64,000 bases of DNA from Escherichia phage 172-1 (NC_028903.1); one strand, 5' to 3'. Counted from the first letter of the stretch, positions 30,800 through 62,212 are shown. The notes: generated by a model not told the origin, from the letters alone. Numbers and translations: made by a program.

Positions 30800-30821
30800 A
30801 AGCTATAACAAGGAGAGTTAC

Positions 30822-42851: not shown

Positions 42852-42924
42852 AACTCTCTCCTGTAAAAATACAAATTCTTATTGTACTCTATATACATTT
42901 GAGAGTTACCATATCTACTACCAA

Positions 42925-49127: not shown

Positions 49128-50324
49128 TTAGTAGTTTACAACAGTGCCATCATTCAGGGTAAGGCTATTAATCTGCAACACACGACCAAGCTGACGATCA
49201 CTAATTGGTGCGTTCCATCCAGAGCGGTAGAAGTTACGACCACAGAAGAACAAGATCACATTACTTGCTACAGTCGAACCGTTTTCAGGATGCTTGATGT
49301 TAGCGATATAATAGCCACGACGTAGATTACGACGGGTTACCGGGTTGATCTCTAACCCTTGTTCTTCAACTTGCATTGTTTCAGGAACAGGCTCCGAAGA
49401 CTCTTCAGCAACTGGCTCAGCTGACAATGCGAAGTTCTCGTCATCTGCTGATTCAGCAAATTCTTCTTCCACTTCTTCAACAGGCAGTTCGTAAGCAACG
49501 CGGTAGTCAGGATCAACACCAGAGAAGCTCTTAACAAACTCAACAATATTATGAGTGTAAGTTTCTAGAGTTGTTCCAGTCAGGCCCGGAGCTGTATTAA
49601 CTTCCAGAACCCAAGCGTTAGTACCTTTGCTAATCAGGTCAACAGCACCGAAGTTCAAACCCAGAGCAGATACAGCTTTGTGAGCTTGAATCAGAACTTG
49701 ATCAGGAGGCGCTTCAGTGAAGGAGTTAGAATAAACCCAACCAGTGTGATGGTTACGAATATCTTCACGATATGTTGACAGATCGCGATAACCGTTACGA
49801 CGAATCTTCTTCTGAACGTAAGTGATAACGCCTTCGAACACATGAACACGCCATTCACGACGTGGGCCTTGAATACCTTTGGTATATAGAGGGGCACGGG
49901 AAATACCTTCCGTCGGAAGACGAACAATAATACCTTCACCGGAGTGCCCATTTAGGATTCCACGCTCATAAACAATTTCGTTCTGGTTCCAATCTGAAGC
50001 CACACTCTGACTTACGGTATACTCTACAGTAGATACTCCAGCAGCTTCCAAAGTTTGAAAAGCTGTAACCTTATTAGCTGCTCGGTTCAATGCCACTACA
50101 GAGTTCAATACAGTTGCCCCACCAAAGAAAGAATCGTTGTATCGACGGTTTCCGTAGTTGACAACAATATCACCAACCCGAGAACGATAACGAGAACCCT
50201 CTGATACCAGAGACATTACGTTAGCGTTTAAGCGGAGTTCCTGAATCTTAGTGTTAATTGCAGAAGTAAGTTCACGAACTGAATCAGAAGGGCCATAAGG
50301 AAGAACACGGATACGAGTAGTCAT
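49128..50324 (-). CDS. ATP-grasp ligase (RimK-like) with acidic linker and C-terminal domain
   Basis: GAVDLISKGTNAWVLEVNTAPGL matches the ATP-grasp C-terminal motif (GVD..x..VLEVNxxPG). Confidence 0.6.
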   Translation of the reverse strand: MTTRIRVLPYGPSDSVRELTSAINTKIQELRLNANVMSLVSEGSRYRSRVGDIVVNYGNRRYNDSFFGGATVLNSVVALNRAANKVTAFQTLEAAGVSTVEYTVSQSVASDWNQNEIVYERGILNGHSGEGIIVRLPTEGISRAPLYTKGIQGPRREWRVHVFEGVITYVQKKIRRNGYRDLSTYREDIRNHHTGWVYSNSFTEAPPDQVLIQAHKAVSALGLNFGAVDLISKGTNAWVLEVNTAPGLTGTTLETYTHNIVEFVKSFSGVDPDYRVAYELPVEEVEEEFAESADDENFALSAEPVAEESSEPVPETMQVEEQGLEINPVTRRNLRRGYYIANIKHPENGSTVASNVILFFCGRNFYRSGWNAPISDRQLGRVLQINSLTLNDGTVVNY

Positions 50325-50767: not shown

Positions 50768-52799
50768 TTAACCTCTATTCAATGAACATTTAGGAGAATT
50801 ACAATAAACTTGATTCATAGAACCAAGCGTACAACTTTCAGCATCGCGCCACGGAATCTGCTTAAAACACTCTGAGCAGTAGCCGAGGGTTGACCACATG
50901 GCTTTGGTGAAGTCAGTGCTTCGGTTTCCGTCGAAGCTGACAACAGTTTTGCGGAGAGCTGTTCGTGATTCAGGAAACACACCTGCTTTCTCAGCAGGTT
51001 CCTCCTTTTTTGGCTTAGTTGAGATTGCAAAAACACTGTTGCTACGTTTCTCAACATAAGCATCAACAACATCCTCCAGAGTGATGCCTGTCTGTTTCGC
51101 TGAGGAAGGTAATACAGTCATACGACCAATCATATCTTCAGTTACACGTAAAGCAAATTCAGGACGGCGGGCGTTTGTTGTATCTGTTGCTTTAATCCAG
51201 ACATAACCATCTTTGATTGTAGCATTAGATACTTTCTTCTTTACATCTACAGCGCAGACTTTACAGATATCTTCACCACGAAGACGACTAAGCTCTTCAT
51301 CGAACTCATTCTCCGTTTTAACTTCACCACAGATTTCACAAACACCAATAGGAGTTTCCTCCTCTTCTTCATCTTTAGGTTTAGTCAAACCTTCCAGACA
51401 TTCAGGGTGCCAGTAGCACTGATATGCGAAGACTGCTTTAGGTGCATCCTTCCAATCAATGTGTTTGTCACAACCACCACAATCACCATGAGAGTGTGCT
51501 TCCCAGAATTTACGAGTGATAGTAACGCCATTCTTATTGACGAAACTATCATTCATGTCAAAAGGGATATCATCATCGAAGTCAGCAGTAGTAGACTCAG
51601 GCTCCTTTTTCTCCAGAGATGGGTCAACAAAACGACCTGCTGTGATTACTAAACGAACCATAGCATTAACTTCGGAGATGCAGGATACTGTCCCACGGTA
51701 AACGATTTTAGGGTCTTTCAGGGCATCCTGATAAGCCTTAATGTCTACGTTATGAACATCGCCTTCAATATACTCTTGAGACTTCTCATCGTAGATATAA
51801 CCAATCATCTTACCACGAGAAGGAACAGCACCAGCTGTTGCATAAGGAACAAACTCATGTGGTGTGATTTCCACAGTCATGTCGCGGCGAATGTCAATGT
51901 TTCGATCGCTTGCGATTTTGTTTTGACTTACCACTGCGTTTCTTCGACGAACGTCTGCCGCTGTCACTCCCGGCTTCGTGTCGTAAGGATTGCTTGTACT
52001 GCTTTTTGAGGAACTTTGATAATTGCTTTGGCTGTAGTTGTTCGAGTAGTAATTGCCCCAACGATTGATTACCGTAAAAACCGGAAGCTCGTGGGCGACC
52101 TCTTCAACTAGAGTCATACTGTTGTTTGACATATCAAAGATATATTCTGTACCAACTTTACATTCAAAGTGCTCATCAATTCGGTTTTTGTGAGACTTAG
52201 AACGCTTCAGAATCCACATCAACATGTCTTCTTCAGAAGCACCAAACCAATCTCTGTTACAACGTGCGAGATGGAAAGGACGCTCTTCATTACGGATGAT
52301 ATGAAGGCGGTTATCAGAAGCATCATGCCAGATTAAGGTGAAAGCACCATCCAGCTTTTGAATAGTCTCTGCTGCACCAATAGTGTTAATAGAGTGGCAG
52401 ATGTTCTCACTGTCTACCTCGAAGTTTTTGCTGTCAGGTAACAGATCTTGGTCCATCAAGGTTCCATTATGAACCAGCGTGATGTTACCATGTTGGAAAG
52501 GATGGGCGTTCTTGGCGTTAACTGCACCTTTCGTTGCATGACGGCTGTGACCAACAATCCATGAAGGTGCTACAGTGTAAGCTGTTTCACCAGTGGTGTG
52601 CTTCTTGTACTCATCTTGAAGGATGAATGCGAAAGAAAGGAAGAGCTTCTTTATAAGTGAAGACTTCCTTAGTGCTCTTACGCTGACCAAAGATACCAGA
52701 GGAATGTTGCCCTCGGAATACTCCAGCATAAAAGAGTTGGTTAAATACGTCTAAATCAGTGCTTGACAGATTACCGCCAGCTAATACGATGCCACAAAT
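50768..52799 (-). CDS. class II (Ntn) glutamine amidotransferase domain protein with Cys-rich C-terminal domain; frame-disrupted with apparent AUU start
   Basis: listed ORF 50768..52729 has GHSRHATKG..NAHPF..LVHNGTL (GATase II) but lacks Cys1; the upstream frame encodes (M)CGIVLAGGNLSSTDLDVFNQLFYAGVFRGQHSSGIFGQ starting at ATT 52799 with SD aggtgg 8 nt upstream; the frames differ by +1. Confidence 0.5.
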
Positions 52800-52878
52800 T
52801 TTCTAATCCACCTGAAGGGTAAACCCTTTCATCTAATTAACCTTTAAATTGTGCCCCTTTTTCAGAGGCACCCATTGA

Positions 52879-53982
52879 TTACAGCGCTTGCTCTAACTGA
52901 TTTTCCAGATGATCTGGAATGTACCTTGTGATATTGCTATCACTGTGACCTGACTCACGCAGTAAGTCAAAGATAGCACGGATACGTTGTTCTGGAGCGT
53001 GTCTTACTTGAGACAGGTCAGTTGTACGAAGCATAACCAGAATCTCTTGGTACAAGTTGTTAGCATTCCCTCGGACATACCCAAGGAATCCGTAGAAGTC
53101 TGACATATAACGTAAGTCAACAAGAACATCTCCGTTGGAGTTGGTTCGACGTAAACGAATACGACCAGACTGCTCTACTTCATGAGAACGGCAATACAAA
53201 ACATCACGGGCCATACAATACCCTGAATGCAAATCCGACTCGTCCAGATTGTAATCCAGAGGAAGGTAAGGAAGCATTGGGGCAAATCGTACAGTATTTA
53301 AATGCTCAATAAACTGATCATTGCTCATCTCTGCGTTATCTAAAGCCAGCTTCTTCAACATCAAGAAGCGGTTAACCAGATTGAGAAGTTGACCACGTTT
53401 CCACTTAGGCTCGCTGATACGGAACTCAATTGAACCGTATTGGGCAAGTGGCAGAAGATTCAGGGATGTATACTTATCCCATGAACGAACCAGACGGTTG
53501 AAGAACTCTTCATCGTCGTAGTTAAATGCGTCAGAGGCATTCATTACTTGTGCTTGTACCACTGCGAAAGCAGGGCAGAAGTTGCTACGGTAACGATGAT
53601 AGCCTGAACACTTGAACAACATCTTTTCATAGAAGGTCCAAGCGAGAATGGTTTTCTTGAGGATATTACTATCAGCATCCCTCATATCCATATGAACGTG
53701 AGTAGAGCAACGCCAAGTCCCCTCGGCGTGCGATTCAGCTACTGCTTCACTCAGGTTGTTGATAGCGTCTAACAACTCCTGTCCGTTGTAAGGTCGTGAA
53801 CATACCATTTCACAACCATTACGCAGGGAACCATCCTCTGTACAATCCCACATATCTGCTTCGATATGATCGGAACCTTCGAGTTCAAGTTCAATACCGA
53901 CACCGCACTGAAGTGCAATTGAACTATGCGCCTCAGTTAAACGACCTTCTCGATATCCAAAAGTTTGCGCTACAGTTGTCAT
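52879..53982 (-). CDS. carboxylate-amine (COOH-NH2) ligase-like, amidoligase family
   Basis: GVGIELELEGSD and STHVHMDM motifs resembling the glutamine-synthetase/GCS2-type amidoligase metal-binding pattern. Confidence 0.45.
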   Translation of the reverse strand: MTTVAQTFGYREGRLTEAHSSIALQCGVGIELELEGSDHIEADMWDCTEDGSLRNGCEMVCSRPYNGQELLDAINNLSEAVAESHAEGTWRCSTHVHMDMRDADSNILKKTILAWTFYEKMLFKCSGYHRYRSNFCPAFAVVQAQVMNASDAFNYDDEEFFNRLVRSWDKYTSLNLLPLAQYGSIEFRISEPKWKRGQLLNLVNRFLMLKKLALDNAEMSNDQFIEHLNTVRFAPMLPYLPLDYNLDESDLHSGYCMARDVLYCRSHEVEQSGRIRLRRTNSNGDVLVDLRYMSDFYGFLGYVRGNANNLYQEILVMLRTTDLSQVRHAPEQRIRAIFDLLRESGHSDSNITRYIPDHLENQLEQAL

Positions 53983-62135: not shown

Positions 62136-62212
62136 TGGCGCACCGTGGAGGATTCTAACCTCCAACCAATTTCTTAGAAGGAAACTGCTCTATACAATTG
62201 AGCTAACGGCGC
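62136..62212 (-). tRNA. tRNA-Arg (anticodon UCU)
   Basis: hand-folded cloverleaf: acceptor GCGCCGU/ACGGUGC, D stem GCUC/GAGC, anticodon stem GUUUC/GAAAU with loop CUUCUAA, T stem GGAGG/CCUCC with loop UUAGAAU, discriminator G and encoded CCA. Confidence 0.65.

What the first reader, a model, noticed from the sequence alone, without database searches (positions are those of the whole stretch)
52611..52813. Amidotransferase catalytic Cys is encoded upstream of the annotated ATG in another frame: apparent AUU start plus a +1 frame disruption
The listed ORF starts at ATG 52729 (MLEYSEG...) and contains GHSRHATKG...NAHPF, but class II amidotransferases need Cys as residue 1 of the mature protein. 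Immediately upstream, in the frame offset by one, the sequence reads K-I-C-G-I-V-L-A-G-G-N-L-S-S-T-D-L-D-V-F-N-Q-L-F-Y-A-G-V-F-R-G-Q-H-S-S-G-I-F-G-Q, a textbook amidotransferase N-terminus (compare MCGIVG...RGQDSAGI). That frame opens right after a TAG, and the codon before Cys is ATT (52799-52797) with SD AGGTGG 8 nt upstream, so initiation at AUU is the only way to place Cys at position 2. The N-terminal frame ends at TGA 52613-52611, so a +1 shift (or a 1-nt deletion, possibly a homopolymer error in the ctttctttc run) is needed within about 52611-52729 to join the two parts. Either the enzyme uses a rare start plus recoding, or the gene is broken or mis-sequenced.
Basis: seen in the sequence. 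Interest (0 to 1): 0.8.

Follow-up and report, generated by a model that had tools for sequence, protein, structure and literature searches.

The report
AUU-started phage amidotransferase gene, frame broken
This is the phiEco32-type phage glutamine amidotransferase gene, which really does start at a conserved, rare AUU codon (already annotated that way in the reference phage), but the frame break is one extra T found only in this genome, so it is a mutation or a sequencing error and not programmed frameshifting.

Summary
On the minus strand, TAG-AAA-ATT-TGT opens a frame that encodes CGIVLAGG… and stops at TGA 52613-52611. The rest of the GATase lies in the +1 frame.

The window is a Kuravirus (phiEco32-like) phage. 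Relatives carry one continuous 676-codon gene. The window has one extra T (TTT 52638-52636, where relatives have TT).
- All 60 listed rows of 84 phage records map 81 nt of the window onto 80 nt.
- The insertion allele has no exact match in IMG/VR or in the metagenome contigs; the normal allele occurs in five metagenome contigs.
So the break is private to this genome, not conserved recoding. These tools cannot tell a real mutation from a base-call error.

The ATT start holds up.
- The phiEco32 (2008) and SU10 records already begin the CDS at this ATT.
- Orthologues in other phages have ATG at exactly that position.
- No canonical start lies between the upstream TAG and the Cys codon, and AGGTGG sits 8 nt upstream.

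Two further findings:
- The 45 nt before the Cys codon are identical between Kuravirus and Suseptimavirus, although synonymous sites are only 59% identical.
- ATT or ATC precedes the Cys codon in 8 of 59 homologue clusters from IMG/VR.

Overall this is an ordinary broken gene carrying a rare start codon that is already annotated but has not been studied.

The parts
52797..52841 (-). 45-nt leader directly upstream of the Cys codon (GTTAATTAGATGAAAGGGTTTACCCTTCAGGTGGATTAGAAAATT, read on the minus strand). It is strongly conserved at the nucleotide level.
   Evidence: SU10 and SU7 are identical at 45/45 positions, while third positions of identical codons in the gene are 59% identical. Aeromonas phage BUCT695 matches at 39/45, with 53% protein identity. 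A 70-nt query spanning the leader is 100% identical in 67 records.
52803..52832 (-). In-frame mini-ORF ATG AAA GGG TTT ACC CTT CAG GTG GAT TAG (MKGFTLQVD*). Its stop lies 3 nt before the ATT.
   Evidence: It is also present in SU7 and BUCT695 (MKGLTLQAD*). Whether it is translated was not tested.
52815..52828 (-). Short hairpin AAGGG-TTTA-CCCTT inside the leader
   Evidence: Seen in the sequence. It is retained in BUCT695 with only a loop change. Its folding energy is not better than shuffled sequence.
52808..52813 (-). Shine-Dalgarno sequence AGGTGG, 8 nt upstream of the ATT
   Evidence: conserved across relatives.
52797..52799 (-). ATT, the inferred initiation codon (AUU)
   Evidence: The annotated CDS starts of phi32_83 and SU10_085 map here. 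ATG occupies this position in P59, GAP52, SE131 and PJNS034 and in 65 of the 79 IMG/VR loci tallied.
52794..52796 (-). TGT, the catalytic Cys1 codon of the class II (Ntn) glutamine amidotransferase domain
   Evidence: CGIV is invariant in alignment A2. Family assignment rests on Pfam GATase_6/7 and a PDB profile search that hits GlmS, PurF and AsnB.
52611..52799 (-). The N-terminal reading frame as it stands in this window: 62 sense codons from ATT, then TGA 52613-52611
52636..52638 (-). TTT run containing one extra T relative to all relatives (TT); this is the frame break
   Evidence: Alignment A1. All 60 listed rows of 84 phage records map 81 nt onto 80 nt. It is private against both NJ01 and phiEco32. 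The allele is absent from IMG/VR and the metagenome contigs.
50768..52635 (-). Remainder of the gene in the +1 frame, including the stop codon: the rest of the GATase domain plus a ~430-aa C-terminal region of unknown function with CxxC pairs
52879..53982 (-). Upstream neighbour: Amidoligase_2 protein
   Evidence: Pfam PF12224, E = 3.9e-8.
49128..50324 (-). Downstream neighbour annotated as an ATP-grasp enzyme in relatives
   Evidence: Annotations. The only Pfam matches (Dala_Dala_lig_C, RimK) fall below their cut-offs.

Best explanation
The locus is this Kuravirus phage's copy of phiEco32 gene 83. That gene has 676 codons. Its first ~240 residues form a class II (N-terminal-nucleophile) glutamine amidotransferase domain.

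**Start codon (inferred).** Translation starts at the conserved AUU 52799-52797, served by AGGTGG 8 nt upstream. The initiator methionine is then removed, exposing the catalytic Cys1. AUU initiation and Met removal are inferred from comparative evidence and from what is established for PurF and GlmS; no N-terminal data exist.

**Frame break (shown).** In this genome one extra T in a TT run (TTT 52638-52636) shifts the frame. The AUU-initiated product would stop after 62 sense codons. The remaining ~615 codons are out of frame and lack the nucleophile. The insertion is unique to this sequence, so it is either a real loss-of-function mutation in an accessory early gene or a residual base-calling error. 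It is not programmed +1 frameshifting.

**Likely role of the weak start (inferred).** The AUU sits in an invariant leader. I propose that together they throttle or regulate translation of the enzyme, as at infC and pcnB. Ribosomes terminating at the UAG of the mini-ORF 3 nt upstream may also contribute.
For: **Identity of the locus.** It is 96-99% identical to 67 Kuravirus records.

**Intact gene in relatives.**
- SU10 reads through as KICGIV…EALPSFAFILQDEYKK… for 676 codons.
- Three of the metagenome contigs with the normal allele also read 675 aa from Cys to the stop; a fourth stretch ends before the stop.

**The break is a private insertion.**
- It is one alignment column, TTT versus TT.
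- All 60 listed rows of 84 records map 81 nt onto 80 nt, and none reaches 100% identity.
- It is private against both NJ01 and phiEco32.
- The insertion allele has 0 matches in IMG/VR and 0 in the metagenome contigs; the normal allele has 5 metagenome matches.
- It is the only conserved ORF of 80 aa or more split by an indel that is private against both NJ01 and phiEco32.

**AUU is the start.**
- The phi32_83 and SU10_085 CDS begin at this ATT.
- The in-frame codons back to the upstream stop are only TAG AAA ATT.
- Homologues place ATG at the same position. The tally over 79 IMG/VR loci is 65 ATG, 12 ATT, 1 ATC and 1 GTG.
- Each ATT or ATC case has its own Shine-Dalgarno sequence 7-9 nt upstream.
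- The four ATT loci parsed for this (L034, L052, L065, L067) have no canonical in-frame start between the upstream stop and Cys. L033 also lacks one in the stretch read.
- Eight of 59 clusters at 70% identity use ATT or ATC.

**The protein is made during infection.** SU10 gp85 was detected by mass spectrometry with 9 peptides (PMC4281155).

**The leader is under constraint.** It matches at 45/45 positions where synonymous sites match at 59%.

**AUU is a usable start in E. coli.** In a reporter it was 6-8 fold below AUG, and about twofold better in the infC arrangement with a stop 3 nt upstream (PMC3592434).
Against: - There is no protein-level evidence for the N-terminus. The SU10 supplements held contain no peptide lists, and the paper's 63.8 kDa figure matches a truncated gene model.
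- The leader shows no statistically unusual fold (z = -0.1 to -1.1) and no covariation, so its mechanism is open.
- In BUCT695 the mini-ORF lacks the AAAGG motif that precedes its ATG in Kuravirus. This weakens the reinitiation idea.
- No reads are available, so error and real mutation cannot be separated.
- The two other private 1-nt insertions (30821, 42865) are intergenic and uninformative.
Confidence: 0.85

Rival explanations
1. The extra T is a sequencing or assembly error. The real phage has the intact 676-codon gene.
For: The difference is a single base in a run of identical bases. No other public sequence carries it. The gene is otherwise 98-99% identical to intact relatives. All three isolated private 1-nt indels in the window are insertions.
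Against: A 2→3 base run is not a typical error-prone homopolymer. The assembly is otherwise clean: this is the only conserved ORF of 80 aa or more split by an indel private against both NJ01 and phiEco32. The same gene is also disrupted in another isolate, myPSH1131, by a 76-nt tandem duplication, so natural loss is plausible.
Confidence: 0.4
2. The extra T is a real frameshift mutation that inactivates an accessory early gene in this isolate.
For: The same facts as for the sequencing-error rival apply. In addition, it is the only coding-frame split private against both relatives in ~60 kb. There is independent disruption in myPSH1131. The gene is absent from many related phage groups and therefore accessory.
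Against: The gene is intact and highly conserved in the other ~95 Gordonclarkvirinae records, which argues that it matters to the phage.
Confidence: 0.55
3. Programmed +1 ribosomal frameshifting joins the two frames, for example tRNA-Phe slipping from UUU (52634-52632) to UUC.
For: A UUU-C slip would give …EALPFFAFILQDE…, one residue different from the normal …EALPSFAFILQDE… (inference).
Against: The frame break is absent from every relative. There is no stop or rare codon at the site, and no Shine-Dalgarno-like stimulator upstream of it. The 0-frame stop lies 6 codons downstream. No Rfam frameshift element reaches its threshold.
Confidence: 0.03
4. AUU is not the start. Translation begins at the mini-ORF ATG 52832 and reads through UAG, and a 12-residue propeptide is then cleaved to expose Cys, as in the Bacillus subtilis PurF propeptide.
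For: The mini-ORF is in frame with the gene, conserved in three lineages, and 12 codons from Cys.
Against: This needs amber suppression, and the only tRNA in the window is Arg(TCT). In 65 of 79 homologous loci, Met directly precedes Cys with no propeptide. The other ATT lineages have different or no upstream in-frame ORFs.
Confidence: 0.03

Closest known systems
phiEco32 gp83 (phi32_83, ABY52884.1) and SU10 gp85 (SU10_085), annotated 'glutamine amidotransferase'
   Same: Orthologous gene at ~97-98% nucleotide identity, with the same leader, the same ATT start and the same neighbours: amidoligase upstream and ATP-grasp downstream.
   Different: Those genes are continuous for 676 codons. The window has one extra T at 52638-52636 that breaks the frame.
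E. coli infC (IF3) and pcnB, the classical AUU-initiated genes
   Same: AUU is the start codon. At infC a stop lies 3 nt upstream (UAA GGU AUU); here the arrangement is UAG AAA AUU. In both cases a weak start limits translation (PMC3592434).
   Different: This is a phage enzyme gene. IF3-dependent autoregulation is untested here. The upstream ORF is a 9-codon mini-ORF rather than a full gene.
Class II (Ntn) glutamine amidotransferases: GlmS, PurF, AsnB
   Same: Cys immediately follows the initiator codon, the N-terminus reads CGIV, and the motif GH.R.AT.G…N.HPF is present. Pfam GATase_6/7 match, and a profile search hits 1xff, 6lbp, 1ecb and 8sue.
   Different: There is no recognisable synthase or isomerase domain. 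Instead there is a ~430-aa C-terminal region without Pfam matches that carries CxxC pairs. The acceptor substrate is unknown.
Phage amidoligase–GATase–ATP-grasp cassettes (Iyer et al. 2009, as cited in PMC10580990; LUZ24-like phages, PMC3890496)
   Same: The same three enzyme types are adjacent, in the same order as in UFV-P2 and LUZ24-like phages.
   Different: The function is only predicted (cell-wall or peptide modification, or metabolite synthesis). Nothing was tested here.
prfB (RF2) type programmed +1 frameshifting
   Same: A +1 shift would be needed to read through.
   Different: The break is not conserved in orthologues, and there is neither an in-frame stop at the shift site nor an upstream Shine-Dalgarno stimulator.

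Membership tests
Class II (Ntn) glutamine amidotransferase | Catalytic Cys as the first residue after the initiator codon | tested here: met
   ATT-TGT in the window. Cys1 is invariant in 7 aligned homologues and directly follows the start codon in the 79 IMG/VR loci tallied.
Class II (Ntn) glutamine amidotransferase | Sequence match to class II GATase domain models and to solved members | tested here: met
   Pfam GATase_6 1e-14 and GATase_7 3.6e-6, both above their cut-offs. Profile hits to GlmS 1xff (7.5e-7), PurF and AsnB.
Class II (Ntn) glutamine amidotransferase | One continuous polypeptide joining Cys1 to the rest of the glutaminase fold | tested here: not met
   Met in all relatives, but broken in this window by the extra T at 52638-52636.
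Class II (Ntn) glutamine amidotransferase | Glutaminase activity and ammonia transfer | not testable with these tools
   Requires biochemistry.
AUU-initiated bacterial or phage genes (infC/pcnB type) | No canonical in-frame start between the upstream stop and the first conserved residue | tested here: met
   The in-frame codons are only TAG AAA ATT. The same holds for ATT lineages L034, L052, L065 and L067.
AUU-initiated bacterial or phage genes (infC/pcnB type) | Shine-Dalgarno sequence at functional spacing from the AUU | tested here: met
   AGGTGG 8 nt upstream. GGAGG-like motifs lie 7-9 nt upstream in the other ATT lineages.
AUU-initiated bacterial or phage genes (infC/pcnB type) | Orthologues carry AUG at the homologous position, and the AUU is conserved within its lineage | tested here: met
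   ATG-TGT in P59, GAP52, SE131 and PJNS034. The 70-nt stretch that includes the ATT is matched at 93-100% identity in 97 records.
AUU-initiated bacterial or phage genes (infC/pcnB type) | Experimentally determined N-terminus or a start-codon mutagenesis effect | not testable with these tools
   No peptide-level data were found.
Programmed +1 ribosomal frameshift (prfB type) | Frame break conserved among orthologues | tested here: not met
   No relative examined carries it: no listed phage record maps 81→81 nt, and the allele has 0 matches in IMG/VR and 0 in the metagenome contigs.
Programmed +1 ribosomal frameshift (prfB type) | Shift site with a slow or stop codon in the A site and an upstream Shine-Dalgarno-like stimulator | tested here: not met
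   The site reads CCT TTC TTT CGC. The nearest 0-frame stop is 6 codons downstream, and no SD-like motif lies in the preceding 20 nt.
Phage amidoligase–GATase–ATP-grasp cassette | Adjacent Amidoligase_2 and ATP-grasp genes | tested here: inconclusive
   Amidoligase_2 is met (E = 3.9e-8). The ATP-grasp match is only below cut-off (Dala_Dala_lig_C 1.8e-3) and otherwise rests on annotation in relatives.

The most novel reading that the evidence does not exclude
The AUU start is a selected translational throttle, not a tolerated oddity. An invariant 45-nt leader holds a mini-ORF whose UAG lies 3 nt before the AUU (as at thrS-infC), a hairpin and a strong Shine-Dalgarno sequence. On this reading the leader makes synthesis of the phage glutaminase depend on reinitiation and/or on the host's IF3 level. 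The same solution (ATT or ATC directly before the catalytic Cys codon) arose independently in at least six lineages of phage class II amidotransferases.
Probability: 0.3. Interest if true: 0.5.

Novelty: new member of a known kind. Interest (0 to 1): 0.3.

Why it matters
**Annotation.** Most public Kuravirus records leave the first 26-114 codons of this gene unannotated, including the catalytic cysteine, because gene callers do not allow ATT starts. The enzyme is therefore routinely described in a form that could not work.

**Biology.** This would be a phage example of AUU initiation, set in a leader under far stronger constraint than the gene body. The recurrence of ATT/ATC starts in this one enzyme family suggests selection for low or regulated expression. 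Simple reporter constructs could test that.

**The frame break.** It has no wider significance. It should only be flagged for resequencing or pseudogene annotation.

Tried and rejected
- **Promoter for the phage sigma factor.** I asked whether the leader is a repeated promoter. The published gp36 motif is tAATGTATAtA, which the leader does not match. The leader sequence occurs only once in the window.
- **Known RNA families.** The only Rfam matches are far below gathering score: astro_FSE 16 bits and mir-9412 19.5 bits, against thresholds of 70.
- **Stable leader structure.** RNA folds of the leader are no better than shuffles (z = -0.1 to -2.3). The Shine-Dalgarno-sequestering helix predicted for the window is broken in BUCT695. 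No structural claim is made.
- **Consensus promoter/terminator scan of 52500-53100.** It found nothing above the shuffle expectation.
- **Suppressor tRNA for UAG readthrough.** Only tRNA-Arg(TCT) is present.
- **Source record of the window.** It is not in the phage collection. The best match over 20 kb is NJ01 at 96.4%.
- **Peptide evidence in the SU10 paper's supplements.** None is held.
- **Iyer et al. 2009.** The paper could not be opened and is cited only through PMC10580990.

Full report
**What is there**

Read on the minus strand, the region is: TAA (stop of an Amidoligase_2 gene, 52881-52879), a GC-rich hairpin (52871-52851), then ATG AAA GGG TTT ACC CTT CAG GTG GAT TAG AAA ATT TGT GGC ATC GTA….

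The frame that opens after TAG 52805-52803 translates as KICGIVLAGGNLSSTDLDVFNQLFYAGVFRGQHSSGIFGQRKSTKEVFTYKEALPFFRIHPSR and stops at TGA 52613-52611. The long mechanical ORF (ATG 52729 to 50768, 653 aa) is in the +1 frame. It carries …VGHSRHATKGAVNAKNAHPF… and matches Pfam GATase_6 (1e-14) and GATase_7. AGGTGG lies at 52813-52808, 8 nt before ATT 52799-52797.

**Where the window comes from**

The 2.4-kb region matches 67 Escherichia and Shigella phages of the genus Kuravirus (phiEco32-like, Gordonclarkvirinae) at 95-99% identity over most of its length. The window itself is not in the phage collection. The best match over 20 kb is NJ01 at 96.4%.

**The frame break is one private extra T**

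- A five-way alignment (window, NJ01, XT32, O18-011, SU10) shows a single gap column. The window has CTTCCTTTCTTTCGC and all the others have CTTCC-TTCTTTCGC. The extra T is in the run 52638-52636.
- Without it, SU10 reads KICGIV…KEALPSFAFILQDEYKKHTTGE… through to a stop after 676 codons.
- An 81-nt query centred on the site found 84 phage records. In every one of the 60 rows listed it maps onto one base fewer, and the best identity is 97.5%, never 100%.
- The insertion allele, searched as an exact pattern, has no match in IMG/VR and none in the metagenome contigs.
- The normal allele, run as a positive control, is present in five metagenome contigs. Three of these read 675 codons from Cys to the stop behind an exact copy of the leader. 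A fourth has the exact leader, but the stretch held ends before the stop.

The break is therefore specific to this one sequence. Programmed +1 frameshifting would be conserved among orthologues, and this is not. The site (CCT TTC TTT CGC) also has no stop or hungry codon and no upstream Shine-Dalgarno-like stimulator. A spontaneous UUU→UUC slip could in principle yield a near-normal protein (S→F at one position), but nothing suggests more than trace levels.

**Error or mutation?**

I compared the whole window with NJ01 and phiEco32.

- Only three isolated 1-nt indels are private to the window, and all three are insertions.
- Position 30821 lies just 3' of a stop codon. Position 42865 (A4→A5) lies between two ORFs. 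Both are intergenic.
- The third is the one in the amidotransferase. Among phiEco32 ORFs of 80 aa or more it is the only frame split caused by an indel private against both relatives; the other splits are intergenic or lie in regions that differ from phiEco32 alone.

The assembly is therefore not riddled with homopolymer errors, and a 2→3 base run is not a classic error site. That mildly favours a real mutation. Another isolate, myPSH1131, has the same gene disrupted by a 76-nt tandem duplication, so loss in culture is plausible. Without reads the question stays open. My estimate is roughly 55% real mutation and 40% error.

**The ATT start is real, conserved and already annotated**

- *Existing annotation.* The phiEco32 record (EU330206, phi32_83) and the SU10 record (SU10_085) both annotate a 2031-nt CDS whose first codon is this ATT. 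This half of the finding has therefore been in GenBank since the phiEco32 record (2008).
- *Orthologues.* The codon immediately before the Cys codon is ATG in Proteus phage P59, Cronobacter phage GAP52, Salmonella phage SE131 and Escherichia phage PJNS034. It is ATT, preceded by TAG AAA, in Suseptimavirus SU7 and in Aeromonas phage BUCT695.
- *No alternative start.* Nothing canonical lies in frame between the TAG and Cys.
- *Family requirement.* The family needs Cys as residue 1 after Met removal. This is established for PurF and GlmS. The family assignment here rests on Pfam and on a profile search of the PDB that hits GlmS 1xff, PurF and AsnB.
- *Expression.* SU10 gp85 was detected by mass spectrometry in infected cells with 9 peptides (PMC4281155). 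No N-terminal peptide data are available.

AUU initiation is therefore strongly supported by comparison but has not been demonstrated directly.

The 45 nt before the Cys codon (52841-52797) are identical at 45/45 positions between SU10 and SU7. In the same gene pair, third positions of identical codons are only 59% identical. BUCT695, with 53% protein identity, keeps 39/45. A 70-nt query spanning the leader is 100% identical in 67 records and 97-98.6% identical in 28 more.

The leader holds four elements:
- an in-frame 9-codon mini-ORF (MKGFTLQVD*) whose UAG is 3 nt before the AUU;
- a 5-bp hairpin, AAGGG/CCCTT;
- the Shine-Dalgarno sequence;
- an A-rich spacer.

The stop-3 nt-AUU arrangement is the one found at thrS-infC (UAA GGU AUU). 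There, reinitiation roughly doubled AUU use, and AUU was 6-8 fold weaker than AUG in a reporter (PMC3592434).

I could not establish how the leader works. Its folds are no better than shuffles, and the predicted Shine-Dalgarno-sequestering helix is not kept in BUCT695. There is no Rfam match. It does not match the published gp36 promoter motif tAATGTATAtA, and it occurs only once in the window.

The tally of the codon before Cys over 79 IMG/VR loci that encode homologues is:

| Codon before Cys | Loci |
|---|---|
| ATG | 65 |
| ATT | 12 |
| ATC | 1 |
| GTG | 1 |
| TTG | 0 |

- The ATT/ATC cases fall into at least six groups with unrelated leaders: the Kuravirus group, L034, L052/L033/L030, L065, L067 and L088/L089.
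- Each has its own GGAGG-like motif 7-9 nt upstream.
- The four parsed for this (L034, L052, L065, L067) have no canonical in-frame start between the upstream stop and Cys.
- L067's nearest relatives (L060, L063, L064) have ATG.
- After clustering at 70% identity, 8 of 59 clusters use ATT or ATC.

From general knowledge, ATT starts are well under 1% of bacterial and phage genes, so this looks like real enrichment. No matched control set was run. The most economical reading is selection for low or regulated translation of a glutaminase. This is an inference.

**Context and function**

The gene lies between an Amidoligase_2 gene (52879-53982) and a gene annotated as ATP-grasp in relatives (49128-50324). 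The same trio occurs in LUZ24-like phages (PMC3890496). Iyer et al. 2009 discussed it as a predicted peptide, metabolite or cell-wall modification system (as cited in PMC10580990). The GATase domain would supply ammonia from glutamine to a partner ligase. The ~430-aa C-terminal region has no Pfam match and contains CxxC pairs. None of this was tested here.

**Verdict**

The AUU start is genuine, conserved and already annotated in the reference genome. The '+1 recoding' is an ordinary private 1-nt insertion, either a mutation or an error. The residual interest lies in the constrained leader and in the recurrence of ATT/ATC starts across this enzyme family. Interest 0.3.

Noticed in passing
window 52797-52841 (minus strand); L006 356-400; L009 356-400: The 45-nt leader before the Cys codon is far more conserved than the gene. 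SU10 and SU7 match at 45/45 positions, against 59% at synonymous third positions. Aeromonas phage BUCT695, from a different family (Grimontviridae), matches at 39/45. What the leader does is unresolved.
   Followed up: partly
window 52803-52832 (minus strand): An in-frame 9-codon mini-ORF (MKGFTLQVD*) ends with UAG 3 nt before the AUU. This is the same stop-3 nt-AUU geometry as thrS-infC in E. coli. It is conserved in SU7 and BUCT695 (MKGLTLQAD*).
   Followed up: partly
IMG/VR loci L030, L033, L034, L052, L065, L067, L088, L089 (Cys codon at ~1001, or found upstream of the match): ATT, and once ATC, directly precedes the catalytic Cys codon in at least five further lineages of phage GATase genes. 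Each has its own Shine-Dalgarno sequence. Overall 8 of 59 clusters at 70% identity use ATT or ATC, only 1 uses GTG and none uses TTG.
   Followed up: partly
L017, L021, L019, L010, L008, L009: about 20-45 nt upstream of the start codon: Relatives with ATG starts, and BUCT695, carry TTTAAATGTAAA-like motifs just upstream of the ribosome-binding site. These resemble the phiEco32/SU10 gp36-sigma promoter core AATGTATA. In Kuravirus the corresponding sequence is TTTAAAGGTTAAT, which may be a decayed promoter.
   Followed up: no
public records (NJ01 CDS at L001 2144-3832; the 'none' rows): Most deposited Kuravirus genomes annotate this gene from an internal ATG or leave the 5' part unannotated. They therefore omit the catalytic Cys and up to 114 residues. 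NJ01, XT32 and many others are affected.
   Followed up: partly
L096 (Escherichia phage myPSH1131, MG983840.1 59701-61096): A 76-nt tandem duplication inside the GATase domain repeats HATKGAVNAKNAHPFQHGNITLVH and breaks the frame of the same gene in another isolate.
   Followed up: partly
window 30821 and 42865: There are two more 1-nt insertions private to the window when compared with both NJ01 and phiEco32: TTA[C]TTA, and A4→A5. Both are intergenic.
   Followed up: yes
window 52851-52871 (minus strand): A GC-rich hairpin (GUGCCUCU-GAAAA-AGGGGCAC) lies right after the amidoligase stop and is followed by AAUUU. One relative (WFI101126) annotates a terminator in this region.
   Followed up: no
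window 50770-51500 (minus strand), C-terminal third of the GATase protein: Several CxxC…CxxC pairs are present (CGGCDKH…CYWHPEC; CEICGEV…CKVCA; CSECFKQ…CNSPKC), which suggests zinc-ribbon-like modules. The ~430 aa after the GATase domain have no Pfam match.
   Followed up: no
H13, Escherichia phage vB_EcoP_YF01 (OQ025076.1 56121-59014): An HNH endonuclease gene (~490 nt extra) is inserted within the region matched by the amidoligase-GATase query. Its exact position was not examined.
   Followed up: no
window 62136-62212 (minus strand): tRNA-Arg (anticodon TCT), as in phiEco32.
   Followed up: no
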